Shown here: piece by piece, positions 1 to 63,912 of the stretch
Layout of the letters: each line of letters starts with the position of its first letter
Position numbering within the stretch: position 1 is the stretch's first letter
From: a virus
Taxonomy: Duplodnaviria > Heunggongvirae > Uroviricota > Caudoviricetes
Virus record (IMG/VR): IMGVR_UViG_3300002054_000021
Span: 77,864-141,863 of that record
Direction: 5' to 3' (one strand)
Length of the DNA: 64,000 nucleotides
Notes under the pieces: model-generated
Told to the model about the DNA's origin: nothing
The model's input: the letters and a program-made list of their open reading frames with translations, nothing else
Database searches by the model: none
Made by a program: the position numbers and the translations under genes

Positions 1-258
1 AACGAGAAGGTTTACGGACCTATTCAGTTACACGCTAAGCACGGAGGAAAAATTTGTTCAGAACCCGACTGGCCTGCATTGCGCCAAGCTTTCTATGAGG
101 CTCTTGTTGAGGTTGGCGGCGAAGCGGGCGCGGCTGAATATAAGAATTATGCATTTGATGTAGGCAGTAATGGTAAGAGCGCTGATTCTAACACTCGCAC
201 TCACTACAGACTTCATGGGAATAATTACCCTGAACATATACATCCATGTCATCATTAA
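1..258 (+). CDS. hypothetical protein, C-terminal fragment (gene continues upstream of window)
   Basis: Frame 1 is open from the window edge to TAA at 256-258. Absent from the ORF track because no start lies inside the window. Confidence 0.35.
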   Translation, partial: NEKVYGPIQLHAKHGGKICSEPDWPALRQAFYEALVEVGGEAGAAEYKNYAFDVGSNGKSADSNTRTHYRLHGNNYPEHIHPCHH

Positions 259-271
259 ATAGGTATACACT

Positions 272-922
272 GTGATAACTTCTACAAATACTGGAGGAGC
301 GATAGACGCTTGGTCAATATCGCCTACTTTACCTGCTGGTCTAGCATTCAACACATCAACTGGCGCTATTACAGGAACACCAACAGCAGCTTCAACCAAT
401 ACAACATACACTATCACGGCAACTAACGCAACAGGTAATGATATGTGTACATTTGACATAGAGGTAACATTCACTGCCCCAACAAGCACTATAGGTGCAG
501 ATCCATCCTCAAGTCTACTAACCTTGAGGAGAGGAGCCACAATACCAGCTGATGCGACATTCCTTAGATTCAACACTGACGGTTCTTACAGGTTTGAAAG
601 TCAAGATGGCGACTTCTTGTTTATGGATAGTTTTGGTAACTTTGTAAGTCCAGCTGGAGATGCTGCTGATTGGGATGTTTTATTCGATCCTAACTTCACC
701 AGTGATCCAGCAACAGGTGTAACTATTGATGGTCCAGCAGGTAATAATACTTGGATTAACGTTTCTGGAGCAGACGTAGTATGGGGATTTGGTCAGGACA
801 ATACGTCTAGTAATGTTGTTACTGTAGATGTACACTTTAGGCCTAACGGTTCTGGGTTAAATGTAGGTGACGCAGGTACGACAACTTGGACGGTGACTAT
901 AACTGGCAGAAATATGCTTTAA
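272..922 (+). CDS. Ig-like (He_PIG-type) domain structural protein
   Basis: Motif WSISPTLPAGLAFNTSTGAITGTPT, also found in the fibre at 15598. GTG start. Start codon uncertain. Confidence 0.55.
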   Translation: MITSTNTGGAIDAWSISPTLPAGLAFNTSTGAITGTPTAASTNTTYTITATNATGNDMCTFDIEVTFTAPTSTIGADPSSSLLTLRRGATIPADATFLRFNTDGSYRFESQDGDFLFMDSFGNFVSPAGDAADWDVLFDPNFTSDPATGVTIDGPAGNNTWINVSGADVVWGFGQDNTSSNVVTVDVHFRPNGSGLNVGDAGTTTWTVTITGRNML

Positions 923-1269
923 TGAAAATATTAATAAAAATATTTATTGTTATTTTTCTATTGTCATGTTCACCGTCTTCTGATTCTGTTAATATAGGAG
1001 ACGTTCTAGACCCTCCAGAAAAATTAAAAATATCAGAAGGTCAAGTGCTTATAAAAATGCATGACACTCAAAGTGATATATCATTATTATGTGGTGACGG
1101 TGAAGTTTCTGCGTGTATGATAAAAAAAGATGATATCGTAATTATACATATGCCTAATCCATGTGTTTACAGGGATTCATACTCTAAACTTTTATGTCAT
1201 GAATGGGCGCACTATCAACAATATAGATCTGGTTTAAATTTGGATCATCAAGGATGGAAGAAACCATGA
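922..1269 (+). CDS. putative lipoprotein with HExxH zinc-metallopeptidase motif
   Basis: ATG at 922 gives MKILIKIFIVIFLLSCS (signal peptide plus lipobox). HEWAH motif present. Upstream part of the track ORF is probably not translated. Confidence 0.5.
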   Translation: MKILIKIFIVIFLLSCSPSSDSVNIGDVLDPPEKLKISEGQVLIKMHDTQSDISLLCGDGEVSACMIKKDDIVIIHMPNPCVYRDSYSKLLCHEWAHYQQYRSGLNLDHQGWKKP

Positions 1270-1520
1270 TTCCAAAAATATCTCTTAATTTTAATAATAC
1301 TTATATAAAAAGAATTGGTGAATTTTCTGTTATATTTACTAAAGATAAAGATGCAGTAAATTTTAGTGATGCTACCGATAATGTTTCTGATGTCACTTCT
1401 AGTAATATGGATGCAGTATCGCCAATTAAAAATAACAAAAACAATAAAACTAAATTACTTCTTGCATCGTCTGCGGTTGTGATAGTTTTAGCAATTATCG
1501 CCTTTATAGGCGCAAACTAA
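1266..1520 (+). CDS. small C-terminally anchored membrane protein
   Basis: Hydrophobic C-terminus LLLASSAVVIVLAIIAFIGAN. Confidence 0.4.
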   Translation: MIPKISLNFNNTYIKRIGEFSVIFTKDKDAVNFSDATDNVSDVTSSNMDAVSPIKNNKNNKTKLLLASSAVVIVLAIIAFIGAN

Positions 1521-1614
1521 AGGCTATAATATTTATATAAAAATGTGATAAAAACATTGACATATTATAATATTGTGGTATATTTAATAAATATATAGTG
1601 AGTAAAATTTATTT

Positions 1615-1700
1615 GGTACTGTGGCGGAATTGGTTACGCAGCAGATTGCAAATCTGTCAGTAGGCACAGCCTCATGCTGGTTCGAGTCCAGTCAGTACCT
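1615..1700 (+). tRNA. tRNA, anticodon GCA (Cys-like, U73) with an 18-nt variable arm (type II-like); atypical
   Basis: Hand fold: acceptor GGTACTG/CAGTACC, D-stem GCG/CGC with G18G19, anticodon stem GCAGA/TCTGT, loop TTGCAAA, variable hairpin GGC-ACA-GCC, T-arm GCTGG-TTCGAGT-CCAGT, discriminator T, encoded CCA. Confidence 0.6.
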
Positions 1701-1713
1701 CCAAGATTAATTA

Positions 1714-2571
1714 ATGAAAAAATGGACAGATGATGAATTGTTGATACTATCAACTATGGTTTTCAATGGAAGCAGAGATGATGAAATAGGTAAGGTTTTA
1801 GGTAGGTCTAAAAAATCTGTGTCTATAAAAAGATTTAAGTTAAAATTAAAACTTAAGCCAATAGATCTCAAAGAGATAGTGATTTGTAAAAACTGTTCAA
1901 AAGAGTTTGCTGATCTGATTTCAAGAAATAGGAAATTTTGCTCTAATAGCTGCTCAATAACAGAGTCTAATTTAAATACAACTGTCAATATTACTAATTG
2001 CCCTGATTGCGATAAAGAAATAGAGAGTAAATCTAGAAACAGATTGCAAAAATGTAAAAATTGCCGATATAGCTCAAGGCCAAGATTAATAAAGAAAGAG
2101 TTTCACAGGAAAGTTAAGGTTGATACTTTATGCCCTGATCTTTCATTGCTCGATCTTAATCCTATAATCATTAAAAGGTCAATACCATCTAAGGTTTGCA
2201 AAACTTGCACTAATAAAATACCAAATAAAAATATTTACTGTCTATCATGTTCATTTGAATATTATAGTTTATATAGACCTAAATGCGAATTTAAGTTTAA
2301 CCCCTTAGATTTTAGTCAAAAAATAGATTGCTCATTAATACATGAGTTCGGCAGGTATAGTCCCTCAAACAGAGGTGACAATATTAATGGCGCATCATTA
2401 GATCATATGCTTTCTGTAAGGGATGGATTTAGGTTAAAGGTTGATCCTAAAATAATCAGTCACCCTGCTAACTGCAAGGTCATGATTCAAAATAAAAATA
2501 GCGCCAAAAATGATAGATCATCTATTAGTCTTGATGACCTTTTATTAAAAATAAAAAATTGGCATAATTAA
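1714..2571 (+). CDS. HNH endonuclease with multiple CxxC zinc ribbons (homing-endonuclease-like)
   Basis: C-terminal LDHMLSVRDG...HPANCKVMIQNKN HNH-like motif. Many CxxC pairs. Immediately 3' of the tRNA. Confidence 0.55.
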   Translation: MKKWTDDELLILSTMVFNGSRDDEIGKVLGRSKKSVSIKRFKLKLKLKPIDLKEIVICKNCSKEFADLISRNRKFCSNSCSITESNLNTTVNITNCPDCDKEIESKSRNRLQKCKNCRYSSRPRLIKKEFHRKVKVDTLCPDLSLLDLNPIIIKRSIPSKVCKTCTNKIPNKNIYCLSCSFEYYSLYRPKCEFKFNPLDFSQKIDCSLIHEFGRYSPSNRGDNINGASLDHMLSVRDGFRLKVDPKIISHPANCKVMIQNKNSAKNDRSSISLDDLLLKIKNWHN

Positions 2572-2614
2572 ACATAATCGCTAAAGCGGTTTTACATTAC
2601 ATTGGGAATTAAAT

Positions 2615-3340
2615 ATGAGTGTACGTTACGGTGTATCTGACGCATCTAGATGTGGCGCTAGAGCTGTTGTTTATCAACCAGAGGGTTGTGCAACTTGCCT
2701 AACGTTAAAATTAGGTGAAGTTCAGATTTTTGAAATAGACTTCAGTGATGAAGTAAGGTGTAATCCAAGAAGAATAGGTTGCTCTGTGGATTACGATGAG
2801 GTTGTAAATGTTATTTCTTTTTCAGCCACACCTTTGACTGTTTTCGGTGGCGGAGGTAGTATAACTGCATCTATAGGTGATATAGGAAATAGAACTGGGA
2901 TTGTCCAGATATTAGTGGATGCAACAAATATATCATTACAGCCAGACGAAAAGTGGGCACTTAATATGAGTGTATCACTTGAAAGCGGGAGAATTTTGAA
3001 ACAGTGCTTCAATGTAAGACTTATAGAGTGCGGCGAGGTTTGTTTAGATAATTCACCGAGTTGCTCAGGTCCAATATTGAAATCAATAGCTAATTGCGGA
3101 TGTGGAATATTACATTTAAGTGATGAGGTTCCAGTAGGTACTGTCTGTGCTGAAATAAGCCCAGCATGCGATGTTTTTTACACACTAGACGGAACTGACC
3201 CTCATGGAGATTCAGCAATACCTCTTGCTGCTGGGAATACTGTTAGGATAGTTAATAACTCAGAAATAAATGGCTTTAGAATGGAAGCTGTTCATGATGG
3301 CGACGAGATATGTGTTTCAAGAACATATAGAGGATCGTAA
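2615..3340 (+). CDS. cysteine-rich protein with chitobiase/CHB_HEX_C-like motif (possible virion decoration)
   Basis: Motif FYTLDGTDPHG...AGNTVRIV. Confidence 0.4.
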   Translation: MSVRYGVSDASRCGARAVVYQPEGCATCLTLKLGEVQIFEIDFSDEVRCNPRRIGCSVDYDEVVNVISFSATPLTVFGGGGSITASIGDIGNRTGIVQILVDATNISLQPDEKWALNMSVSLESGRILKQCFNVRLIECGEVCLDNSPSCSGPILKSIANCGCGILHLSDEVPVGTVCAEISPACDVFYTLDGTDPHGDSAIPLAAGNTVRIVNNSEINGFRMEAVHDGDEICVSRTYRGS

Positions 3341-3350
3341 TATTTAGATC

Positions 3351-3938
3351 ATGAATTTTATACAGGAGAATGGAGAAGGATTATCTAATAGTGTAACTTA
3401 CGTATCTTATACAGATGTTGTTGGTTATGCGATGAAGGACTTTTTCTATTATGAATGGTTTTATAAAGATGATGATTGTGTTTTCTCTAAGAAAGAAGTT
3501 GAAAGAGCGGGCGCTACAGCTAGTAAATTAATAGATAGTTTGTGTTGGAAGGGCAGGAGGTCAAACTCTATGCAAAATATGGAGTGGCCAAGATGCGGCG
3601 CTCATAGCGATTGTTATTATGGTGCATGCGCTCCGTCTAATATAATTCCTAAAGAAATAATGGAATCTACTATAATTATGACTTTATTAATTCTTAAAGG
3701 TGAAGTTGTTTCAGGGACAAATCAAACCCCAGCAAAAGTGAAGTCATTAAGTTTAGATAAAATGTCTATAGAATTTAAAGATGGTGCCTATATAGACCCA
3801 AATGCAGGATCATGTGGCGGCGGAATGAACACTACGTCATCAGATAAATTTTATTCTGTCAGACATTTAATAGATTGTTACCTCTCTAGATCGTCATCAT
3901 CTAAGTCAGTGAATGTTAAATTTAAGAGAACTTTATAA
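3351..3938 (+). CDS. hypothetical protein
   Basis: 195-aa ORF in the + strand gene series. Confidence 0.45.
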   Translation: MNFIQENGEGLSNSVTYVSYTDVVGYAMKDFFYYEWFYKDDDCVFSKKEVERAGATASKLIDSLCWKGRRSNSMQNMEWPRCGAHSDCYYGACAPSNIIPKEIMESTIIMTLLILKGEVVSGTNQTPAKVKSLSLDKMSIEFKDGAYIDPNAGSCGGGMNTTSSDKFYSVRHLIDCYLSRSSSSKSVNVKFKRTL

Positions 3939-4231
3939 TGATAATAAATAACACAAGAAAGCATAAAATAACTATAGGTAAGGTGCAGGTAGGAAAAAAG
4001 AAAGTGACATACGACTTCGCTGCTGGAAAAGGTGAAGAAAACACCATAACTCAGTATGACTACCATTGCTTAATGCAGAATATATCATTTGAAAGAATGA
4101 TAGAATCTAAAGTTTTAGTTTTAATTAAAGATAACTCCACTAAAAAGCAATCAACTAAGAAAGACGCCACTGATGCTGCTGATGTTGATAAGTTAAATAC
4201 TTTAAGCATGAAAGATGTTAAAGGAGAATAG
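3938..4231 (+). CDS. hypothetical protein
   Basis: 97-aa ORF that overlaps the upstream stop codon. Confidence 0.4.
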   Translation: MIINNTRKHKITIGKVQVGKKKVTYDFAAGKGEENTITQYDYHCLMQNISFERMIESKVLVLIKDNSTKKQSTKKDATDAADVDKLNTLSMKDVKGE

Positions 4232-4236
4232 TTAAG

Positions 4237-4779
4237 TTGTCTATAACAACTGACGTTTCTACAGAATTAAATTTTTTTGGAACCACTGGTTCCGCCCGTA
4301 AAACTTTTGCAGGATCTAGATTAGATGAATTGCAAAAATTTTCTAGAATTATAAGCACTGCGGAATTTTCTGTTGGGTTTACAAATGATAAGCACCCAGA
4401 TTCTGATCTTAGCTACGCTCAGTTGGCAACTATATTAGAATTTGGATCTCCAAGCAGAGGTATTGTAGCTAGGCCTTATCTAGAAAGGTCATCACGTATC
4501 GTTGTTCCAAGTATAAGAAGAAATCTCATACCTGTTATGGAGAGATTAGGGTCGTTAAGGGTCAAAGTGACCAAGGCTCAAATATTAAATGAATTATCTG
4601 CCGTCTCTAATGATGCTGCAGAAAAGACTAAGTCAGTAATTAGAAGAAGAAGTGTTAGGGTTTCTGAAAATAGAGAGCCTTACAGATCTAGAAAAAGGGC
4701 TGGCGGTTTTGGTGAAAGGCCTTGGATAAAAACAGGTAACTTAGTAGCTAATATACAAGGATTTGTAAGGTTAAAATAA
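4237..4779 (+). CDS. hypothetical protein (head-tail joining region by position)
   Basis: TTG start with AAGGAG RBS. Confidence 0.5.
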   Translation: MSITTDVSTELNFFGTTGSARKTFAGSRLDELQKFSRIISTAEFSVGFTNDKHPDSDLSYAQLATILEFGSPSRGIVARPYLERSSRIVVPSIRRNLIPVMERLGSLRVKVTKAQILNELSAVSNDAAEKTKSVIRRRSVRVSENREPYRSRKRAGGFGERPWIKTGNLVANIQGFVRLK

Positions 4780-4798
4780 TTTAATATCTGGTGGGCTT

Positions 4799-5209
4799 AT
4801 GTCGAGAGTTGGTTTGGAAAGCGGAATTTTTAGCATGTTTTCGAGACTTGGGGGTCAGTCCGTAGTTATATACCGAGAGGATTGCTCAGCAGGTTATGAT
4901 AGAGCTACAGGAAAAAGGATTAGATCTAATAAGATAGACATACAATCTTGCGCTATTATTAAGCCAGCGTCGGAAAGTTCTATCATACAAGATTCTGGAG
5001 GAGAGCGAGGGTCTTCCACTATGGTAATACAAACACCTCCAGAAGTGCCGATATATACTACAGACGAAAGGGACGCTGCAGGAGCTGATATAGTTTTTGC
5101 TAGGGGTAAATTTTGGAAGATAATGAAGGTAACAGATCATTGTTATTATTGGGAAGGGGAGATGATGTTGCTTCCAGATAATATATGTAAGGACTTAGGG
5201 ATAGAGTAG
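4799..5209 (+). CDS. hypothetical protein
   Basis: 136-aa ORF. Confidence 0.45.
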   Translation: MSRVGLESGIFSMFSRLGGQSVVIYREDCSAGYDRATGKRIRSNKIDIQSCAIIKPASESSIIQDSGGERGSSTMVIQTPPEVPIYTTDERDAAGADIVFARGKFWKIMKVTDHCYYWEGEMMLLPDNICKDLGIE

Positions 5210-5212
5210 GAA

Positions 5213-5797
5213 ATGGAATCTATTAGAGAGACCGTTCTTAATGGGGTTATAAAGTTTATAACTGGAGTTTGCGACAACCATGAGGACACGAGAGGTCTAT
5301 ATGTTATAAGAAGATACGAAGATGGTGTCAGGCCAAATTCTTCAAAGTTTGAAAACTCTTGTGAAAACTACGGCGCTTCGGCTTTTATGGAAGTTAATAT
5401 AGAGAACCTTTCTAGGTTAAACACTTGCAAGTCTTTTGAGTTTAATGATCAGGGTCAATATCAGGAAATATCTATAAAGAACTACGAAGTAGAAATAAAG
5501 GTAGATGTTTTTGGGTGTGGATCACTAGATGTGTCAAAGATAGTTTTAGATGCTATAGAATTATTTGAATTAAGAAGATCTTTATTGCCTAATAATCTTG
5601 GGTATTTGAATCACACTGACGTAATTGACGTGACAGCCCTTCAGGAAACCATGCATGAAGAACGTGTGACCTTTTCTTTAAACTTTGAATATTGCTGTGA
5701 GGCTGTTGCTGATATTCCAAAGGTAGATTTTAGCGCATGCTTGAAAAAATTAATTAATAACAAAAAATTAGATTGTGAAGATCTAAATAAAATTTAA
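5213..5797 (+). CDS. hypothetical protein
   Basis: 194-aa ORF. Confidence 0.5.
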   Translation: MESIRETVLNGVIKFITGVCDNHEDTRGLYVIRRYEDGVRPNSSKFENSCENYGASAFMEVNIENLSRLNTCKSFEFNDQGQYQEISIKNYEVEIKVDVFGCGSLDVSKIVLDAIELFELRRSLLPNNLGYLNHTDVIDVTALQETMHEERVTFSLNFEYCCEAVADIPKVDFSACLKKLINNKKLDCEDLNKI

Positions 5798-5814
5798 AAT
5801 ATAGAGGTATTTAA

Positions 5815-6930
5815 ATGGCAGACTGTAATACATGCTTACCGTTAGAATGTCTTGTTAAGGTAGATATAGGCATTGAAAATGTCGTAGACCAAGCTGAGTT
5901 TAATTGCTTAGCTATCCTTACAGACAATCTTACAGGTGGTATAGGTGGGGCTGCATCTCCAGTTAATGCTGGCGATTGCGCTAAAGACTACGTGACTTTT
6001 GATGAAGTTGCTTCGGAATGGGACTCGACTAGTGATGTTTACGCTTCTGCTCAACATGCATTTGCTCAAACTCCGTCTGTAGCAATAGTTAAGGTTATGT
6101 ATGTGGATTTTGGGGCTAACATACAAAATCAACTAAACACCCTGTTTGAATGTGAAGTATGTCAAGGTATAGTGGCACCTTCTTTAAGGGATGACCCAAG
6201 AGTTCTTGAAATTGCTGATTGGGTCGAGGCTAGAGGTGGTAGTAACTTCTTCTTTACGGATAGTAATGATGAATTAACCTTGGATCAAAATGATGGTACA
6301 AGCATGGCCGCTATGTTTCAAGCTGCAGCTTACCAATATTCTGCAGTTTATTATCATTCCGATATTGATGAGCAATTTGCATCTGCAGCAATGTCATTTG
6401 GTCTGGGTCAAGACTTAGATTTAGTAGGATCTGCGTTCACAATGGCATTTAATGAGCTTGCTTTAGTTGCTCCAGACTTTGTCAGTAAATCTGAACTTGT
6501 CGCCATAACAGGGCATCTTCCAGCTACTGGATGTGGGCCACAATTTGGTAAATTCGCATCTTTATATGGGTGTGTAGGTGGTCAAAATATGATGCTTTAT
6601 GGCTCAATGGCAGACGGAAATTTCTTTGATACAGCGCTACTTAGAGAATATATGAAAGCTAGAATACAAGAAGGTGTATCTCAAGTATTTGTCAATGGGT
6701 CGGTTCCTCAAACTCAAGTTGGAGCTACAATTTTAGCCAACAATGTTGATTTTATATTGTCTCAATTTGAAGCTGCTGGATGGATAACAGAATACACAGT
6801 TCTTGCTCCAGTTGTGGCTAATTCCACCACCGCGACTAGAGCATGTAGAATACTTGAGTGTATTGAATGGGACGCAACATTAGCTGGAAGAGTGCATTCT
6901 ACTTGTGTTCTAGGCCGTCTGAACTTTTAG
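5815..6930 (+). CDS. putative tail sheath-like protein (synteny only)
   Basis: 371-aa ORF upstream of the tube, chaperone and tape measure genes. No motif support. Confidence 0.4.
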   Translation: MADCNTCLPLECLVKVDIGIENVVDQAEFNCLAILTDNLTGGIGGAASPVNAGDCAKDYVTFDEVASEWDSTSDVYASAQHAFAQTPSVAIVKVMYVDFGANIQNQLNTLFECEVCQGIVAPSLRDDPRVLEIADWVEARGGSNFFFTDSNDELTLDQNDGTSMAAMFQAAAYQYSAVYYHSDIDEQFASAAMSFGLGQDLDLVGSAFTMAFNELALVAPDFVSKSELVAITGHLPATGCGPQFGKFASLYGCVGGQNMMLYGSMADGNFFDTALLREYMKARIQEGVSQVFVNGSVPQTQVGATILANNVDFILSQFEAAGWITEYTVLAPVVANSTTATRACRILECIEWDATLAGRVHSTCVLGRLNF

Positions 6931-8276: not shown

Positions 8277-9983
8277 ATGGCAATTTCAGCAACCCGCGTA
8301 GCAGCGTTCGAATTTTTAATACAATTCAGATCTGCTGGGAGAAATCAAGTTCGCGGTGCTGTAAGGCAGCTAAGGTCATTAAATAGAGTTCAAAGAAATA
8401 ATTCTTCGACAGCTGCTGCGTCTGCAAGGTCGGTAAGCGCATATGCTGCAAGCCTAAGAAGATCAAATCGTAGTCTGCTAGCGGCGACAACTCGTGAGGT
8501 CGCCCTAACCACTGCGCTTAGAAGTGGCGCTAGAGCTAGAATTAGGGCTGCAGCGGCTACGAGAATAGCTAACGCTAGGGAAAATAATTCGAGACTAGCA
8601 AGGGCATTTGGCTCAAGGTCTGTTCAATTAACTTCTAGATTGTTTGGTGCTAGAGCAGCGGGAAATCTTGCTGGCTTTAGATCTGGTATAGGTAGTGTAG
8701 CATCTAGGATTGTAAAGTTGGGTAGGGCATTAGGTCCAGTAGGCGCTGCGCTTTCTTTATTTTTTGGTTTGGTCAGAGGTGGTTTAGGGCTTCTGGCGTC
8801 TTGGGCTAAGTTTAATGCTATAGTTCTTGGCGGTATAGGTTTATTATCTGTTGGAATAGCTAAACTAGCAGACTCATTCTCAAACCTAACAAATAGAATA
8901 AGGGTTGCTGGTGATGGAACAACGACAGTAGCTGACACCACTCTAAGATTAAGAAATATAGCAAGAGAGTCTAGAACTGAGTTTTCAAATATAGCTGAAC
9001 TTTATGGTCGTGTTTCTATCAACGCTAAAGAGCTTGGTGTTAATCAGGCTGAGGTGTTAAAGTTAACAGAATTAACAGCAAAAGCATTCAAGATTGCTGG
9101 CATAACATCTCGTGAAGAAAGCCAAACAATTATTCAATTTGCTCAAGCTCTTGGTTCAAATAGACTTTCTGGAGATGAACTTAGGGCCGTCAGAGAGCAG
9201 GCTCCAGAACTTTCGCAGTCTTTAGCAAGAGGTTTGACTGCATTAGGTAATTTCGGAACTGTAACAGTTGGTAGACTAAAAGAGTTGGGTGAAGAAGGAG
9301 TCTTAACTACTAGGGTTATAACTGACGCATTACTTCAACAAGAAAAAGTAATAAACCAAAGATTTAACAGAATTAGGCCTAAGGTTGCAGAGGGCGTACA
9401 GCAATTAAAAAGCTCTTTGTTTATTTTCGCTGGCACAATAACAGAATCTCTGAATTTAGGTCCTAGGATGTTTAAATTCTTCGACGGACTGGCTCAAAGG
9501 TTTGATGCTTTAGGCAAGTCTTCTGGAAGAATAGCGTTAGCTATAAGAAGACTTCCTCAATTATTTAGAGCTTTAGGTTTAAATGGCCTAAACCCATTAT
9601 TTAAATTCTTTGATGGCATAAATTCATTCTTCAGTAATCTTCCAGATAAAATAGTAAGATTAGCAAATAATATAAACAGCTTTGTATCTCAAATAAATAA
9701 CGGGGAAAGCGCCCAAGTTGCCGCCCAAAGAGCATTTGGTCAAGACTTAGCAGATGTTAGAAGGATATTTGAACCTTTTTCAAATATAAGCAGTGGATTT
9801 TTTAAGCAATTAGATGCATTTAAAGATGCAGTAGTGACTATATCTAATGCGTTACTATCACTTGCGGCTATAATAGATGATGTAGCTAAAGTATTTAACA
9901 TTATTAAGTTCGCCGCCAATGCGGCAACTCCATTAGGCAGGGCAAGAATAGCGGCTGGGGGATTCCCAAGGAGTGACCAATAA
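8277..9983 (+). CDS. tail tape measure protein
   Basis: 568 aa, Ala/Arg/Ser-rich and helical, with hydrophobic glycine-rich segments. Follows the chaperones. Confidence 0.65.
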   Translation: MAISATRVAAFEFLIQFRSAGRNQVRGAVRQLRSLNRVQRNNSSTAAASARSVSAYAASLRRSNRSLLAATTREVALTTALRSGARARIRAAAATRIANARENNSRLARAFGSRSVQLTSRLFGARAAGNLAGFRSGIGSVASRIVKLGRALGPVGAALSLFFGLVRGGLGLLASWAKFNAIVLGGIGLLSVGIAKLADSFSNLTNRIRVAGDGTTTVADTTLRLRNIARESRTEFSNIAELYGRVSINAKELGVNQAEVLKLTELTAKAFKIAGITSREESQTIIQFAQALGSNRLSGDELRAVREQAPELSQSLARGLTALGNFGTVTVGRLKELGEEGVLTTRVITDALLQQEKVINQRFNRIRPKVAEGVQQLKSSLFIFAGTITESLNLGPRMFKFFDGLAQRFDALGKSSGRIALAIRRLPQLFRALGLNGLNPLFKFFDGINSFFSNLPDKIVRLANNINSFVSQINNGESAQVAAQRAFGQDLADVRRIFEPFSNISSGFFKQLDAFKDAVVTISNALLSLAAIIDDVAKVFNIIKFAANAATPLGRARIAAGGFPRSDQ

Positions 9984-15597: not shown

Positions 15598-17166
15598 ATG
15601 GCAGAAAATTTAACATTGGATTTAGATTGTTGTGATTTTCCAGACTTAGATATATGTGATATAGTGGCAACTATGCCTGCTCAATATCAACAGTCAAGTA
15701 AGTTGCAGGATTTATTTCTTATACCTCTCATAAATCAGATTAATTGTGCAAGAAGTACATTTAGGGTAATGTGTGGAGACTCTGATTGTACAACATTGCA
15801 GTCTGGCGTTCTTACAGCTTATGGGGAATCTGTTGGGTTTGGTAGAGTCCACTGCGATGCTGCTTGTAATGTATCAGGCGCTACAAGTATTGATGAGGAT
15901 GAGATATATTGTAGATTTATACAAATACATCTTTTATCCAAAAGAGGCGCTAACATGTCTACATTGTGCGAAGCTGTGACTTGTTTTTTTGGTGAAGAGG
16001 GAAGAATCCTAACGTCAACTGGAGGTGTAACTGAAATAGCTGTAGGTAGAGAGTTGACAGATGTTGAAAAGAAATATCTTCCATTGATACAAAGAATTTT
16101 GCCTCACACTTGCGGAACTGAGATAAGGATATATGCCAACGATGCTGCAATGTCTTATGATATAGATAATATCTTTGGTATAAATTGTGATGGCTGTGAA
16201 ATATGGAATGACGACCTATGCGGAGGCGCTCCATTCTTATGCAGCCAGAGTGTTTGTGGAGACCCTCCAAGTTTAGTTTGTCCTAATCCTTTAGAATTAA
16301 TAGTAAATGGAATCGTAAGTATATCTTTCGGAAATACAAGCGATCCAGTTCAGTTAGGAGGTTGGTCGATATCCCCATCCTTGCCCGCTGGTCTTAATTT
16401 TGATAGCCAAAATGGATTTATTTCTGGGGCTGCTACAGCAGTATTTCCAGAGACAGAATTCACTGTCATAGGAGTAAATCCTAATGGTGAAGATTCTTGC
16501 ACATTCTTACTGTCTGTAATTCCAGCCGCTCCTGAAATAACATGCTCTCCAGAAAGGATATTCTCTGTAGGTGTTCAAGAGGGTGTTGTTATAGCTTCTA
16601 ACACAGGCGGTCCCATACCATTGGGTGGCTGGTCAATATCGCCACCTCTACCTGCTGGACTTACTTTCAATTCTGATACGGCTGAAATATCTGGGGTGCC
16701 GACAGCACCATCACCACAGACTCAATATTTAATTGAGGCCACCAATATCGATGGTTCAAGTCAGTGCTTGTTCACACTAACAGTTACTGCAGATACTTCA
16801 CCTTGTGTCGGTGTTGTAAACTGTCAAGGCGATGATATATTGTTGACAAACTTTAGGGTTATGACTGGGGTTGGATTTGTGCCAGATGGCTTAATAGGAC
16901 AAACAATAGGTAGTTGTTCTGGAGATATAAGCGGAATAAATATAACTCAATCATTCCATATTAGCGGCGGTGACGTTACTGTGACATTCGATACGCCTAT
17001 ACCTTCAAATTGGACTATGGTGACATTCGAGGGTAATGGAAGGACGGCGTCGATAGACCTTACCCCATACACTGGATTGAGATCATTTACCTTAATCCCA
17101 ACAGATTCATTTAACTATCAACTAATATTCTCAGGACAGTTCGATGTAACTGTTGACTGTACATAA
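15598..17166 (+). CDS. tail fibre / receptor-binding protein with two He_PIG Ig-like repeats
   Basis: Repeats GGWSISPSLPAGLNFDSQNGFISGAATA and GGWSISPPLPAGLTFNSDTAEISGVPTAP. Confidence 0.55.
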   Translation: MAENLTLDLDCCDFPDLDICDIVATMPAQYQQSSKLQDLFLIPLINQINCARSTFRVMCGDSDCTTLQSGVLTAYGESVGFGRVHCDAACNVSGATSIDEDEIYCRFIQIHLLSKRGANMSTLCEAVTCFFGEEGRILTSTGGVTEIAVGRELTDVEKKYLPLIQRILPHTCGTEIRIYANDAAMSYDIDNIFGINCDGCEIWNDDLCGGAPFLCSQSVCGDPPSLVCPNPLELIVNGIVSISFGNTSDPVQLGGWSISPSLPAGLNFDSQNGFISGAATAVFPETEFTVIGVNPNGEDSCTFLLSVIPAAPEITCSPERIFSVGVQEGVVIASNTGGPIPLGGWSISPPLPAGLTFNSDTAEISGVPTAPSPQTQYLIEATNIDGSSQCLFTLTVTADTSPCVGVVNCQGDDILLTNFRVMTGVGFVPDGLIGQTIGSCSGDISGINITQSFHISGGDVTVTFDTPIPSNWTMVTFEGNGRTASIDLTPYTGLRSFTLIPTDSFNYQLIFSGQFDVTVDCT

Positions 17167-52650: not shown

Positions 52651-53253
52651 TTAAAAAAACATACCGTTTATTTTTATTTGCTCATGATCTTCACATCTGT
52701 AATAATCTTTATTTGAAACAGAATATATTCTGGAAGTCAATGTAGCAATATTAATACCTTCTGCTTCTGCTGCAAGTCTTATTGTTTTGAATTTTCCATA
52801 GGGAGTTATGACAGGGTTTCTGTTCTGCTTAGATCTTCTCCCTTTTTTAGATACTCCAGTCATCCACCTGTTAATCGTCCCTTTAGATAAACCTAAATCC
52901 TTAGCTGCGGCTTTCTGTGATATATATGTGACTCCGTTTATAGTACATTCTTTATTGGTGCCGCTTAATTCTGGAGTTAAGCAACCTTTACCACCGCAAA
53001 CTTTATTATAACAGTCCTCTTGATTAACAACATTTTGAGTTACGATCTTGGACTCATATTTATAGGCGTCGTCAGCATTATCAAACTCAGATAATATTTT
53101 CATATGAAAATTTTCTTTACCGTATTCTTTTAATGCTTTTTTGAAATCTTTACCACTACCCAGATACGTGCACGGAGAGCAGTTACAAGAATGCTTTCCA
53201 ATATAGTATTTACCATTGACAAGGTTAGTAGTTTTATAGACAATATGTTTCAT
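52651..53253 (-). CDS. GIY-YIG homing endonuclease with IENR/NUMOD-type C-terminal DNA-binding helices
   Basis: N-terminus KTTNLVNGKYYIGKHS...YLGSG. GGGGAA RBS. Paralogue of the gene at 63181. Confidence 0.65.
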   Translation of the reverse strand: MKHIVYKTTNLVNGKYYIGKHSCNCSPCTYLGSGKDFKKALKEYGKENFHMKILSEFDNADDAYKYESKIVTQNVVNQEDCYNKVCGGKGCLTPELSGTNKECTINGVTYISQKAAAKDLGLSKGTINRWMTGVSKKGRRSKQNRNPVITPYGKFKTIRLAAEAEGINIATLTSRIYSVSNKDYYRCEDHEQIKINGMFF

Positions 53254-62046: not shown

Positions 62047-62565
62047 TTGAGTTCAAAGATAAAATTAGAATATCCATATAATCAAGATTGGAAATGGGGA
62101 TACCTAACTGAAAAAACAACTGGGCGCGATAAGGGCCGCAAGAATATAAGCTTAGTAAATTCTCGCAATAATAGAAGTAGCGTTAGTTACGCTCGTTATT
62201 TAATGTCTGTTCATTTAGGTAGATATCTTACAGATGATGAGCATGTAGATCATATCAATGAAGACAAAGCAGATGATAGAATGGACAACTATCAGATACT
62301 AACTAATGCTGAAAATACCAAAAAGTCACAAGCATTTGCAATTTATGTTGATTTGAAATGTCCTCAATGTGAAAGTAGATTTCTAAGAAGGCGCAAACAC
62401 ACTCACTTATGCGTTAAGAAAAAATTTGTTGATTTCTGCTCTAGAAGCTGTTCTTCAAAGTACTATTCTAGAAAAGACAAAATTAAGTTTACAGAAGAGA
62501 ATAGTAATGCTATAAGTGAAGTCATACTTCATGTGAATGAAGTGGAAGATTATGTATTTGATTAA
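62047..62565 (+). CDS. HNH homing endonuclease
   Basis: Motif HVDHINEDKADDRMDNYQILTNAEN. GAGGTGG RBS. Abuts the tRNA-Met gene. Confidence 0.6.
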   Translation: MSSKIKLEYPYNQDWKWGYLTEKTTGRDKGRKNISLVNSRNNRSSVSYARYLMSVHLGRYLTDDEHVDHINEDKADDRMDNYQILTNAENTKKSQAFAIYVDLKCPQCESRFLRRRKHTHLCVKKKFVDFCSRSCSSKYYSRKDKIKFTEENSNAISEVILHVNEVEDYVFD

Positions 62566-62783: not shown

Positions 62784-62856
62784 GCAGGATGGTGAGAATC
62801 GAACTCACGAAATTCGGGTTCTAAGCCCGACGACCTTCCAACAGATCAACATCCAC
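62784..62856 (-). tRNA. tRNA-like gene, anticodon TAG (Leu-type) but type-I short variable loop and mismatched 1-72 and 2-71 pairs
   Basis: Reverse-complement fold: U8, G18G19, anticodon stem TCGGG/CCCGA, loop CTTAGAA, T-arm GTGAG-TTCGATT-CTCAC. Acceptor GTGGATG versus CATCCTG. Confidence 0.45.
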
Positions 62857-63180: not shown

Positions 63181-63912
63181 TTAGAGTGTAGCGTTCTTCG
63201 CTACACTTTCATTTTTGATTTTAGGTACTCTTCCAGAATTTACACACTTTACTATAGTTGTGCGGTGAACTTGAAAATATTCAGCAGCCTCTTTTGTTGA
63301 TTTAAATAAAATTCCACCTAAGGTGAAATTCTTCATATTTTTCCTAAGGTAATTTGATCTTCCATTATTTTTTGCCCATCTTTTAATTGTGTTAGTGCTA
63401 ACCTTAAAATGCCTAGCGGCATCGCTATAAGATTTAAATACAATACTATCTATCACAACTTGTATAGCGTCCTTACCTCCCTTTTTTAAAGAAAGTGATT
63501 TTCCTCCTTTAGATATCCATCTCGCTATAGTTTTATTACTGACACAAAAATGTCTAGCGGCGGCTCCGTATGACTTAAAATATATGTCATCTATAGTACA
63601 TCCTATAGACCTCCTGCTTTCATTAACGTAGCAACCCTTGCCTCCGTTTATCCCGTTGTAACATTCATTTGAATCTATCATCTCTTTAGTTATAATATCG
63701 GACTCGTATTGGTAAGCCTCTTCTTCTGTCTCAAAATGCAATAAGACTTCTTTGCAAAAGTTATGCTCTCCGTATTTTTCTATTGCTTTCAATAAAGCAT
63801 AACCAGACCCTAAGTACGAACATTGATCCCCGCACCTATTAGAACAAGAATGCTTTCCAATATAGTATTTACCATTGACCAAGTTAGTAGTTTTATATAC
63901 TGTATGTTTCAT
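63181..63912 (-). CDS. GIY-YIG homing endonuclease with three or four IENR/NUMOD repeats
   Basis: N-terminus MKHTVYKTTNLVNGKYYIGKHS. GGGG RBS. Upstream cassette is shared with the gene at 52651. Confidence 0.65.
   Translation of the reverse strand: MKHTVYKTTNLVNGKYYIGKHSCSNRCGDQCSYLGSGYALLKAIEKYGEHNFCKEVLLHFETEEEAYQYESDIITKEMIDSNECYNGINGGKGCYVNESRRSIGCTIDDIYFKSYGAAARHFCVSNKTIARWISKGGKSLSLKKGGKDAIQVVIDSIVFKSYSDAARHFKVSTNTIKRWAKNNGRSNYLRKNMKNFTLGGILFKSTKEAAEYFQVHRTTIVKCVNSGRVPKIKNESVAKNATL

What the first reader, a model, noticed from the sequence alone, without database searches (positions are those of the whole stretch)
1615..1700. tRNA combining Cys identity elements (GCA anticodon, U73) with a long type-II variable arm
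The hand fold gives a canonical cloverleaf with a 7-bp acceptor stem, G18G19, U33, anticodon GCA, A37, a TTCGAGT T-loop and an encoded CCA. The variable region, however, is 18 nt with a GGC/GCC stem. This architecture is normally restricted to Ser, Leu, Tyr and Sec tRNAs. The anticodon loop TTGCAAA differs by one base from a Ser(GCU) loop (TTGCTAA). It could be a Ser-derived tRNA captured to read Cys codons, an allo-tRNA-like recoding element, or a Cys tRNA with an unusual arm. An HNH endonuclease gene sits immediately 3'.
Basis: seen in the sequence. Interest (0 to 1): 0.55.

Follow-up and report, generated by a model that had tools for sequence, protein, structure and literature searches.

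The report
Phage cysteine tRNA with extra arm
A large phage encodes a genuine cysteine tRNA with an extra hairpin arm normally seen only in Ser, Leu and Tyr tRNAs; the same design recurs in many phages and in one bacterial class, apparently undescribed, and most likely does not change which amino acid is carried.

Summary
ARAGORN and Rfam both call a full-length tRNA at 1615-1703(+). It has anticodon GCA, discriminator U73, an encoded CCA, a normal 7/5 acceptor/T branch, and an 18-nt variable region with a 4-bp stem (AGGC/GCCU).

It is not unique. Pattern scans found 79 distinct phage or metagenome tRNA-Cys(GCA) genes with 9-23-nt variable arms; 78 parse with U73. Four are in cultured phages (E. 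coli EcS1, Pseudomonas D6, Rhizobium B1VFA, Vibrio phiKT1024). A further 91 are in bacterial genome contigs, mostly chromosomal genes of Phycisphaerae.

With the arm removed, the window tRNA is 84-86% identical to marine-phage tRNA-Cys genes of both short-loop and long-arm types. Identical bodies occur with variable regions of 4, 5, 13, 15 and 16 nt, so the arm is a hairpin indel inside a true tRNA-Cys lineage. It is not a captured Ser tRNA and not an allo-tRNA.

Most likely host CysRS charges it and it serves a Cys-rich phage proteome (2.0% Cys). The arm's function is unknown.

The 3' ORF matches no HNH profile but shows weak HNH-like fold similarity. Its full-length homologs all sit just downstream of a tRNA-Cys gene.

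I found no paper describing 7/5 long-arm tRNA-Cys.

The parts
1557..1584 (+). Sigma-70-like promoter: -35 TTGACA (1557-1562), 16-nt spacer, extended -10 TGgTATATT (1576-1584). It lies about 30 nt upstream of the tRNA 5' end.
   Evidence: Best consensus match in 1200-2800, 11 of 12 positions with TG. The number of promoter-like sites in the region is not above shuffles, so this is a consensus match only, not shown to function.
1615..1703 (+). tRNA-Cys(GCA) gene with a 7/5 cloverleaf, U73 and an encoded CCA.
   Evidence: ARAGORN. Rfam RF00005, 56 bits, E 2.2e-9, full length. In the related family the cloverleaf helices are 98.3% paired, and 14 of 20 pairs show compensatory changes.
1648..1650 (+). 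Anticodon GCA, which reads UGU and UGC. It sits in loop UUGCAAA with U33 and A37.
1658..1675 (+). 18-nt variable region. 5' linker CAGU; stem AGGC (1662-1665) paired with GCCU (1669-1672); loop ACA; 3' tail CAU. The last base is U48, which faces A15.
   Evidence: Sequence. The hairpin alone folds at -3.5 kcal/mol. In relatives the equivalent hairpin reaches 3 bp or more in 88% of 56 distinct variable regions, against 59% in shuffles (0 of 1000 shuffles reach the observed value), with 36 different stem sequences. The 15:48 pair is A:U or G:C in 90-95%.
1700..1703 (+). Discriminator U73 followed by the encoded CCA end.
   Evidence: Sequence. U73 is present in 78 of 79 phage and 91 of 91 genome long-arm tRNA-Cys genes, although position 73 was not part of any search pattern.
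1714..2571 (+). 285-aa Cys-rich (5.6%) ORF starting 11 nt after the CCA. N-terminal helix-turn-helix, CxxC zinc ribbons, and a conserved C-terminal domain (invariant G226, D230, P251, A252, N253; H231 in 90% or more). Probably a free-standing homing-endonuclease-like gene linked to tRNA-Cys.

Best explanation
This is a functional phage-encoded cysteine tRNA. It is probably transcribed from its own sigma-70-like promoter about 30 nt upstream and trimmed by host RNase P and 3' exonucleases to the encoded CCA end. Host cysteinyl-tRNA synthetase probably charges it with cysteine, using U73 and the G34-C35-A36 anticodon, which are the two dominant Cys identity elements. It then reads UGU and UGC, supplementing the host tRNA pool for a phage whose predicted proteins are about 2% cysteine. 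The two ORFs that follow it are 5.6% and 5.8% Cys.

The 18-nt variable arm is a small hairpin inserted into the variable loop of an otherwise ordinary marine-phage tRNA-Cys body. It projects from the core without disturbing the A15:U48 Levitt pair or the G9 / G13.A22 core, and most probably does not change amino-acid identity.

Shown here: the gene, its fold, its family, the covariation, and the indel nature of the arm. Inferred: promoter use, charging by CysRS, the supply-and-demand role, and neutrality of the arm with respect to identity.
For: Gene and fold.

Family:
- 79 distinct phage or metagenome tRNA-Cys(GCA) genes with 9-23-nt variable regions; 78 parse with U73, and 89% of the 72 tabulated encode CCA.
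- Four are in cultured phages infecting E. coli, Pseudomonas, Rhizobium and Vibrio. To my knowledge, not checked here, these hosts have ordinary short-loop tRNA-Cys.
- 91 distinct long-arm tRNA-Cys genes, all with U73, come from bacterial genome contigs, mostly Phycisphaerae. One such gene lies next to glutamine synthetase.

The arm is an indel within a Cys lineage:
- Bodies with identical acceptor stem and D arm carry variable regions GUAU, ACAAU, GUCGAAAGACUAU, AACACCGAAAGGUAU, CAGUCCGAAAGGCAU and AACACCGAAAGGUAAU.
- The window tRNA core is 84-86% identical to both forms.
- Its D arm differs by one extra U from that of the short-loop tRNA-Cys of Pelagibacter phage HTVC019P.

Structure under selection: cloverleaf 98.3% paired with 14 of 20 pairs compensatory. 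Variable hairpins exceed shuffles, with 36 stem variants. The 15:48 pair covaries.

Identity: U73 and GCA are the major CysRS determinants (PMC9976931). CysRS charges selC* tRNA-Cys, which also has a long variable arm (PMC5389517).

Demand: 373 Cys codons in about 18,500, or 2.02%. Phage fragments carrying tRNA-Cys are richer in Cys than those without: medians 1.76 and 1.54 against 1.34%, p = 0.004 and 0.046.

Promoter.
Against: - No aminoacylation or expression data exist for this or any 7/5 long-arm tRNA-Cys that I could find.
- The host is unknown, so the codon-supply argument is one-sided.
- The Cys percentages come from crude ORF calling.
- The window tRNA has G1:C72, G2:C71 and C11:G24. 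These are shared with phage tRNA-Ser, where G2:C71 occurs in 116 of 116. In addition, 12% of phage tRNA-Ser genes have U73. Some serylation therefore cannot be excluded from sequence alone.
- The E. coli-type G15:G48 element is absent (A15:U48 here).
- The unconstrained minimum-energy fold is not the cloverleaf (-29.0 against -25.9 kcal/mol), as is common for unmodified tRNA sequences.
- If the arm were purely neutral, its recurrent gain and the maintained pairing would need explaining.
Confidence: 0.7

Rival explanations
1. Dual or mis-identity. The long arm recruits seryl-tRNA synthetase, so the tRNA carries Ser, alone or alongside Cys, to Cys codons. This would be deliberate mistranslation or an allo-tRNA-like recoding device.
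For: - The variable region is 18 nt, the modal length of phage tRNA-Ser arms.
- G1:C72, G2:C71 and C11:G24 match the phage tRNA-Ser consensus, and U73 occurs in 14 of 116 phage tRNA-Ser genes.
- Mukai et al. consider a long arm plus G73 or U73 compatible with SerRS (PMC5389517).
Against: - The arm geometry is unlike Ser: a 4-bp stem with 4 nt 5' and 3 nt 3' unpaired, against 5-7 bp with 1 and 1 in 46 phage tRNA-Ser genes.
- A3:U70, present in 102 of 116 phage tRNA-Ser genes, is replaced by U3:A70.
- The branch is 7/5 rather than 8/4 or 9/3, and the D arm is ordinary.
- The same tRNA body exists with a 4-5-nt loop, so the arm is not needed to define the tRNA.
- In Phycisphaerae the long-arm form is a chromosomal tRNA-Cys.
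- The phage's own proteins contain many CxxC zinc motifs that Ser insertion would damage.
Confidence: 0.08
2. The tRNA is a normal Cys decoder, but the arm itself is adaptive. Either it makes the phage tRNA, or its gene, different from the host or competitor version so that it escapes a tRNA-targeting nuclease. Or it destroys the recognition site of the homing endonuclease encoded next to it, giving self-immunity.
For: - Hairpin insertions recur independently, with many stem sequences in one tRNA-Cys lineage.
- In my phage and metagenome loci, which were mostly selected for carrying tRNA-Cys, normally short-loop isotypes also carry such hairpins: Trp, Asn, Lys, Ile, Met, His, Thr, Gln, Gly and others.
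- The window tRNA and all four distinct full-length homologs of ORF 1714-2571 form a tRNA-Cys-then-ORF cassette, and 3 of the 5 tRNAs have long arms.
- The ORF's C-terminal domain resembles HNH nuclease folds.
- The window is rich in homing-endonuclease-like genes.
Against: - The association between the arm and this ORF family is weak overall. A family member lies within 1.2 kb downstream of 5 of 86 long-arm genes and 1 of 87 short-loop genes.
- Two of the five cassettes have ordinary 4-5-nt loops.
- No nuclease known to me discriminates by variable-arm length.
- The variable loop is simply the tRNA site most tolerant of insertions, so drift is a sufficient explanation.
Confidence: 0.15
3. Non-functional relic: a decaying tRNA gene, or a passenger carried along by the neighbouring mobile endonuclease gene.
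For: - It is a solitary gene between structural modules, next to a putative mobile gene.
- The window also holds a degenerate tRNA-like sequence at 62784-62856(-).
Against: - Every helix is intact, with all universal positions present (U8, A14, G18G19, U33, T-loop UUCGAGU, CCA).
- The Rfam score is well above threshold.
- A strong consensus promoter lies upstream.
- Family-wide compensatory changes show purifying selection on the fold.
Confidence: 0.04

Closest known systems
Canonical class I (short variable loop) bacterial and phage tRNA-Cys(GCA)
   Same: GCA anticodon in loop UUGCAAA, U73, a 7/5 branch, a 3-bp D stem with a 13.22 mismatch, and an R15:Y48 pair. The D arm differs by one extra U from that of the 4-nt-loop tRNA-Cys of Pelagibacter phage HTVC019P. 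The core is 84% identical to the short-loop phage tRNA-Cys genes in L375 and L444.
   Different: An 18-nt variable region with a 4-bp helix instead of 4-6 unpaired nt. It lacks the G15:G48 pair used by E. coli CysRS (PMC9976931).
selC* tRNA-Cys (Mukai et al. 2017, NAR 45:2776; PMC5389517)
   Same: Cys identity elements (U73 with GCA) combined with a long variable arm. That paper shows that a CysRS can charge a long-arm tRNA.
   Different: selC* tRNAs are tRNA-Sec mimics: an 8/4 branch, sometimes with an A51a bulge, longer acceptor and anticodon stems, often a UCA anticodon, linkage to selB*/cysS*, and occurrence in anaerobes that have Sec machinery. The window tRNA is 7/5 with ordinary stems, and no Sec-related gene appeared among the window ORFs I scanned.
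allo-tRNAs (same paper)
   Same: A long variable arm with G73 or U73, and occurrence in metagenomes and phages.
   Different: allo-tRNAs have 8/4 or 9/3 branches, a long D stem with a tetraloop and highly diverse anticodons, and are thought to accept Ser. None of these structural features is present here.
Bacterial class II tRNA-Tyr(GUA)
   Same: Across the class, long-arm tRNA-Cys arms have Tyr-like geometry: a roughly 3-bp stem with 3 unpaired nt on the 3' side. tRNA-Tyr is the nearest non-Cys tRNA for 28 of 47. L288, L089, phage EcS1 and the Phycisphaerae genes have Tyr-like D arms. Only U35C plus A73U separate the two identity sets.
   Different: The window tRNA has the short Cys-type D arm (16 nt), U73 and C35. 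Its own nearest non-Cys neighbours are not Tyr. For this lineage, insertion into a Cys body fits better than descent from Tyr.
Free-standing homing endonucleases in phage tRNA regions, such as T4 SegB (from my own knowledge, not retrieved here)
   Same: ORF 1714-2571 and its relatives sit next to or inside phage tRNA gene clusters. They combine a conserved nuclease-like domain with variable DNA-binding modules.
   Different: No GIY-YIG or HNH profile matches. Nuclease activity and target are untested. The specific linkage of the full-length subfamily to tRNA-Cys (5 of 5) is not something I know to have been described.

Membership tests
tRNA (Rfam RF00005) | Covariance-model score above the gathering threshold over the full length | tested here: met
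   56 bits against a threshold of 29, model positions 1-71, E 2.2e-9. ARAGORN agrees.
tRNA-Cys (CysRS substrate) | Anticodon G34 C35 A36 | tested here: met
   GCA at 1648-1650.
tRNA-Cys (CysRS substrate) | Discriminator U73 | tested here: met
   U at 1700. U73 is present in 78 of 79 phage and 91 of 91 genome long-arm relatives, without being part of any search pattern.
tRNA-Cys (CysRS substrate) | Short (4-5 nt) variable loop, class I architecture | tested here: not met
   The variable region is 18 nt with a 4-bp stem.
tRNA-Cys (CysRS substrate) | G15:G48 tertiary pair (determinant for E. coli and H. influenzae CysRS only) | tested here: not met
   A15:U48 here. G:G occurs in 10 of 90 short-loop phage tRNA-Cys genes and in none of the long-arm ones.
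tRNA-Cys (CysRS substrate) | Aminoacylation with cysteine | not testable with these tools
   Needs a biochemical assay.
   All features are present (last line). The core is 84-86% identical to members L318, L170, L251 and L319.
allo-tRNA | 8/4 or 9/3 acceptor/T branch | tested here: not met
   Seven acceptor pairs and five T pairs. Position 8 would face U and position 9 would face G, so no longer acceptor stem can form.
allo-tRNA | tRNA-Sec-like D arm (long stem, tetraloop) | tested here: not met
   3-bp D stem plus G.A, with an 8-nt loop containing G18G19.
selC* tRNA-Cys | Modified 8/4 branch, extended stems, linkage to the selB*/Sec system | tested here: not met
   7/5 branch and a 5-bp anticodon stem. 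The neighbours are phage structural genes and a nuclease-like ORF.
tRNA-Ser (SerRS substrate) | Variable arm with a 5-7-bp stem and about 1 unpaired nt on each side | tested here: not met
   4 bp with 4 and 3 unpaired nt, against the distribution in 46 phage tRNA-Ser genes.
tRNA-Ser (SerRS substrate) | G73 (sometimes U73), G2:C71, A3:U70, and a Ser anticodon | tested here: inconclusive
   U73 and G2:C71 are compatible. A3:U70 is absent, and the anticodon is Cys, though SerRS ignores anticodons.
Bacterial tRNA-Tyr | A73 and a G34 U35 A36 anticodon | tested here: not met
   U73 and C35.
HNH / His-Me finger endonuclease (ORF 1714-2571) | Match to an HNH sequence profile | tested here: not met
   No match in Pfam even at E up to 5, NCBIfam, PHROGs or PDB sequences. 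None of the 36 homologs carries an HNH Pfam hit.
HNH / His-Me finger endonuclease (ORF 1714-2571) | beta-beta-alpha metal-finger fold with a catalytic His and Asn | tested here: inconclusive

The most novel reading that the evidence does not exclude
Canonical-branch (7/5) cysteine tRNAs with a true helical variable arm form an unrecognised class. It would break the rule that class II architecture belongs only to Leu, Ser, Tyr and Sec. It appears to be the chromosomal tRNA-Cys of Phycisphaerae and has arisen repeatedly in phages. In phages, inserting a hairpin into the variable loop would be an adaptive device rather than drift: it would mark phage tRNAs or their genes as 'self' against tRNA-targeting nucleases, or against the tRNA-Cys-linked homing endonuclease encoded right beside this gene. 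Such hairpins are seen here for Cys and for at least nine other isotypes.
Probability: 0.2. Interest if true: 0.7.

Novelty: new variant of a known kind. Interest (0 to 1): 0.5.

Why it matters
Textbooks and recent reviews restrict long variable arms to tRNA-Leu, tRNA-Ser, bacterial tRNA-Tyr and tRNA-Sec. The arm is treated as an identity feature for SerRS, and for TyrRS in bacteria.

A widespread set of tRNA-Cys genes with a normal 7/5 branch and a covarying variable helix has three consequences:

- CysRS would tolerate, and SerRS and TyrRS must reject, a class II body that differs from tRNA-Tyr identity only at positions 35 and 73.
- The set offers natural paired variants, the same body with and without the arm, for testing how the arm affects charging, EF-Tu and ribosome use, and nuclease sensitivity.
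- Annotation pipelines label these genes simply 'tRNA-Cys'. The examples in cultured phages (EcS1, D6, B1VFA, phiKT1024) appear to have gone unremarked: I found no paper describing the arm, though I did not read the papers on those genomes.

For this particular phage the practical message is modest. It most likely carries an ordinary Cys decoder that suits its Cys-rich proteome.

Tried and rejected
- Exact-pattern search for the window's anticodon arm plus a long arm in IMG/VR: 0 hits.
- Nucleotide search of window 1-6000 against cultured phages: no match. The phage is new, and only distant protein relatives exist.
- Relatives of the 3' ORF in IMG/VR: 4 loci, none carrying a tRNA.
- Unconstrained RNAfold does not give the cloverleaf and is not better than shuffles (z = -1.6). 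I relied on covariance models and comparative data instead.
- MAFFT could not put the 5' strands of variable arms of different lengths in register. I therefore measured arm pairing without an alignment, using shuffles, and ran the count of structure pairs only on the four canonical helices.
- Tyr-derived origin was considered for the window tRNA. It fits other subgroups but not this one, whose nearest non-Cys neighbours are uninformative and whose body matches short-loop tRNA-Cys.
- Self-immunity to the homing endonuclease as the general cause of long arms: 5 of 86 against 1 of 87, not convincing.
- A phage-encoded aaRS in the window: none among the 20 larger ORFs scanned.
- Six literature searches found no description of 7/5 long-arm tRNA-Cys. 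The library holds open-access papers only, so this is not proof of absence.
I cannot say whether Phycisphaerae is the only bacterial group with such a tRNA, or whether those genomes also carry a short-loop copy elsewhere.

Full report
**1. Is the feature real?**

Yes. ARAGORN reports tRNA-Cys (anticodon gca) at 1615-1703 on the + strand. The Rfam tRNA model RF00005 aligns end to end to 1615-1700 at 56 bits (gathering score 29, E = 2.2e-9), with a 15-nt insertion in the variable region.

Read against the sequence, the tRNA has these features:
- A 7-bp Watson-Crick acceptor stem (GGUACUG/CAGUACC).
- U8 and G9.
- A 3-bp D stem closed by a G13.A22 mismatch.
- G18 G19.
- Anticodon stem GCAGA/UCUGU and loop UUGCAAA (U33, GCA, A37).
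- T arm GCUGG-UUCGAGU-CCAGU.
- U73 and an encoded CCA.

The variable region is 1658-1675 (CAGUAGGCACAGCCUCAU, 18 nt). An 8/4 or 9/3 alternative cannot form.

A consensus promoter lies about 30 nt upstream: TTGACA, a 16-nt spacer, then TGgTATATT, matching 11 of 12 positions. No intrinsic terminator separates the tRNA from the next ORF, which starts 11 nt after the CCA.

**2. Context**

The window is part of a new, large myovirus-like phage. It encodes a tail sheath, tape measure, baseplate proteins, rIIA/rIIB, a T5 A1-like protein, RecA-like and Rad52-like proteins. It is 36% G+C. It has no nucleotide match among 50,697 cultured phage records.

The same genes lie on a 208-kb metagenomic contig (ENA ERZ27298441 k119_147156) and on contigs from run SRR4188651.

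Only three other tRNA calls lie in the window: Arg-UCU, Met-CAU and a degenerate Leu-UAG-like sequence. No aminoacyl-tRNA synthetase was found among the 20 larger ORFs scanned.

**3. The tRNA is one of many**

A pattern demanding only UUGCAAA, a long gap and a T-loop consensus found about 18 long-arm tRNA-Cys genes among the first 120 IMG/VR hits.

Tighter patterns gave 63 viral loci, not capped, and 53 metagenome loci.

After removing duplicates there are 170 distinct tRNA-Cys(GCA) sequences with variable regions of 9-23 nt. Of these, 79 come from phage or metagenome DNA and 91 from bacterial genome contigs.

Position 73 was never part of a pattern, yet it is U in all 91 genome sequences and in 78 of the 79 phage sequences. 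The one exception may be a parsing error.

Of the 80 genome record titles displayed, 75 are Phycisphaerae, Phycisphaerales or Planctomycetota. One such gene, in a complete chromosome, lies next to glutamine synthetase.

Four cultured phages carry the same design, annotated simply as tRNA-Cys:
- Escherichia phage EcS1
- Pseudomonas phage D6
- Rhizobium phage B1VFA
- Vibrio phage phiKT1024

**4. The arm is a real helix**

Among 56 distinct phage variable regions, 88% can form a hairpin of 3 bp or more. Shuffles give 59%, and 0 of 1000 reach the observed value. There are 36 different stem sequences, for example GUC/GAC, GAC/GUC, ACC/GGU, GAG/CUC, CUCC/GGAG and the window's AGGC/GCCU.

The last nucleotide of the region behaves as position 48. 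The 15:48 pair is A:U or G:C in 90% of phage and 95% of genome sequences.

In a 32-sequence alignment of the window's subfamily, the four canonical helices are 98.3% paired. Compensatory changes occur at 14 of 20 pairs, far above both controls.

**5. Where the window's tRNA comes from**

With the variable region removed, its closest relatives are all tRNA-Cys genes from marine metagenomes and phage contigs, at 84-86% identity. They include long-arm forms (L318, L170, L251, L319) and short-loop forms (L375 and L444, 5-nt loops).

Its D arm differs by one extra U from that of the 4-nt-loop tRNA-Cys in Pelagibacter phage HTVC019P.

Bodies with identical acceptor stem and D arm occur with these variable regions:
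- GUAU (4 nt)
- ACAAU (5 nt)
- GUCGAAAGACUAU (13 nt)
- AACACCGAAAGGUAU and CAGUCCGAAAGGCAU (15 nt)
- AACACCGAAAGGUAAU (16 nt)

The arm is therefore a hairpin indel inside a genuine tRNA-Cys lineage. L270 has the same base motif as the window: CAGU-stem-CAU. This rules out the 'captured Ser tRNA' reading for this gene.

Other subgroups look different. L288, L089, EcS1 and the Phycisphaerae genes have Tyr-like D arms. Across the class, the arm geometry (a roughly 3-bp stem with 3 unpaired nt on the 3' side) resembles phage tRNA-Tyr, not tRNA-Ser (5-7 bp, 1 and 1 unpaired) or tRNA-Leu (4-5 bp, 0 and 1 unpaired). tRNA-Tyr is the nearest non-Cys tRNA for 28 of 47. Only U35C and A73U separate the Tyr and Cys identity sets, so some members may be recruited tRNA-Tyr genes. 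That is inference.

**6. How it most likely works**

U73 and GCA are the dominant determinants for CysRS; U73 alone confers Cys identity on minihelices (PMC9976931). A CysRS charges selC* tRNA-Cys, which also has a long arm (PMC5389517). Cultured phages of E. coli, Pseudomonas, Rhizobium and Vibrio carry long-arm tRNA-Cys genes. To my knowledge, not checked here, those hosts have ordinary tRNA-Cys.

I therefore conclude that host CysRS charges the window tRNA and that it decodes UGU and UGC.

The phage's predicted proteome is 2.02% Cys (218 TGT, 155 TGC). The two ORFs just downstream are 5.6% and 5.8% Cys.

Across phage fragments in my sample, those carrying a tRNA-Cys are richer in Cys than those without: medians 1.76% (long arm) and 1.54% (short loop) against 1.34%, p = 0.004 and 0.046. 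This fits the usual supply-and-demand rationale for phage tRNAs. The ORF calling is crude, and the host is unknown.

**7. Rivals**

*Serylation.* It cannot be fully excluded. The tRNA has G2:C71 and C11:G24 like phage tRNA-Ser, and 12% of phage tRNA-Ser genes have U73. However, the arm geometry is un-Ser-like, A3:U70 is missing, and the same body works without an arm.

*An adaptive role for the arm.* Evasion of tRNA-targeting nucleases, or of a neighbouring homing endonuclease, is attractive for two reasons. Hairpin insertions recur, and they also occur in Trp, Asn, Lys, Ile, Met, His, Thr, Gln and Gly tRNAs in my phage and metagenome loci. The one test I could run was not convincing: 5 of 86 against 1 of 87.

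*A pseudogene.* This is unlikely given the intact fold and the promoter.

**8. The 3' gene**

ORF 1714-2571 matches no HNH profile, and none of its 36 database homologs has one.

All four distinct full-length homologs (about 40% identity) lie directly downstream of a tRNA-Cys(GCA) gene, two with short loops and two with long arms. Homologs sharing only the C-terminal domain sit inside phage tRNA clusters.

This is the pattern of a free-standing homing endonuclease whose DNA-binding module targets a tRNA gene. Activity is untested.

**9. Comparison with what is known, and novelty**

The tRNA works like an ordinary tRNA-Cys. It fails the class I membership criterion of a short loop. It is not an allo-tRNA or a selC* tRNA, because the branch is 7/5, the D arm is ordinary, and no Sec-related gene appeared among the window ORFs I scanned.

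Reviews of non-canonical tRNAs and of tRNA identity (PMC7609411, PMC9976931) list long-arm Cys tRNAs only as selC*. Six full-text searches found no description of 7/5 long-arm tRNA-Cys.

I therefore rate it a new variant of a known kind. The caveats are that only open-access literature was searched, and that examples already sit unremarked in GenBank.

Interest is moderate. The function is probably mundane, but the architecture breaks a textbook rule, recurs widely, and supplies natural with-arm and without-arm pairs for experiments.

Noticed in passing
L129-L248 (genome-contig hits), e.g. L137 6198-6280(-), L232 3383-3463 and 3611-3684: Chromosomal tRNA-Cys(GCA) genes of Phycisphaerae/Planctomycetota have 12-18-nt variable arms with covarying stems, a Tyr-like D arm (CCCGAGUGGACUAAGGG), U73 and no encoded CCA. 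L232 and L210 carry a 5-nt-loop copy of the same body next to a long-arm copy. L137 lies beside glutamine synthetase.
   Followed up: partly
L012, L053, L061, L087, L249, L255, L258, L263, L265, L267, L278, L285, L289, L303, L304, L338, L347: Many of the phage and metagenome contigs that carry long-arm tRNA-Cys also encode normally short-loop isotypes with inserted variable hairpins, each keeping its usual discriminator: Trp-CCA, Asn-GUU, Lys-CUU/UUU, Met-CAU, His-GUG, Thr-GGU, Gln-UUG and Gly-UCC. They also encode tRNA-Ile(UAU) genes with 22-24-nt variable regions that share a conserved CCAGAUUAG motif.
   Followed up: no
window 1615-2571; L356 3687-4595; L357 126-1076; L358 540-1473; L360 44-1084: A conserved two-gene cassette: a tRNA-Cys(GCA) gene followed directly by a homolog of ORF 1714-2571 (helix-turn-helix, zinc ribbons, HNH-like C-terminal domain). 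It is present in all 5 distinct loci, although the tRNAs differ greatly in sequence and in variable-region length (4, 5, 15, 18 and 23 nt).
   Followed up: partly
window 62784-62856 (-): The 'tRNA-Leu(UAG)' call (Rfam 43 bits) has a short class I variable loop and two mismatches (G.G, U.U) at the top of the acceptor stem. It is probably a degenerate tRNA or a remnant. On the same strand it lies just downstream of an ORF with an I-TevI-like DNA-binding domain (63181-63912).
   Followed up: partly
L354 19581-19657 (same phage genome, about 7.7 kb beyond the window end): ARAGORN calls a tRNA with a four-base anticodon (gatt), implying an 8-nt anticodon loop. It could be a frameshift-type tRNA or an artefact.
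   Followed up: no
window 52651-53253(-), 62047-62565(+), 63181-63912(-); L005 1449-2345: The phage is rich in homing-endonuclease-like genes: a SegE-type GIY-YIG, an ORF with a faint HNH_3 hit between tRNA-Arg and tRNA-Met, an ORF with NUMOD1 and I-TevI DNA-binding domains, and a GIY-YIG gene upstream of the window.
   Followed up: partly
whole window: The predicted proteome is unusually rich in cysteine: 2.02%, median ORF 1.7%, several structural proteins at 4-6%. Examples are 15598-17166 with 25 Cys and 2615-3340 with 14 Cys.
   Followed up: partly
L126 1495-1568 (Pelagibacter phage HTVC019P, KC465901.1, reverse complement of about 8946-9019): A complete 74-nt tRNA-Cys(GCA) gene lies in the primase-lysozyme intergenic region. 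It is not annotated in the GenBank record, and the equivalent match is unannotated in most related pelagiphage records. Its D arm differs from the window tRNA's only by lacking one U.
   Followed up: partly
phage and metagenome loci, tRNA-Ser genes: 14 of 116 phage-encoded tRNA-Ser genes have U73 instead of the usual G73, and 6 have A73. G2:C71 is invariant.
   Followed up: no
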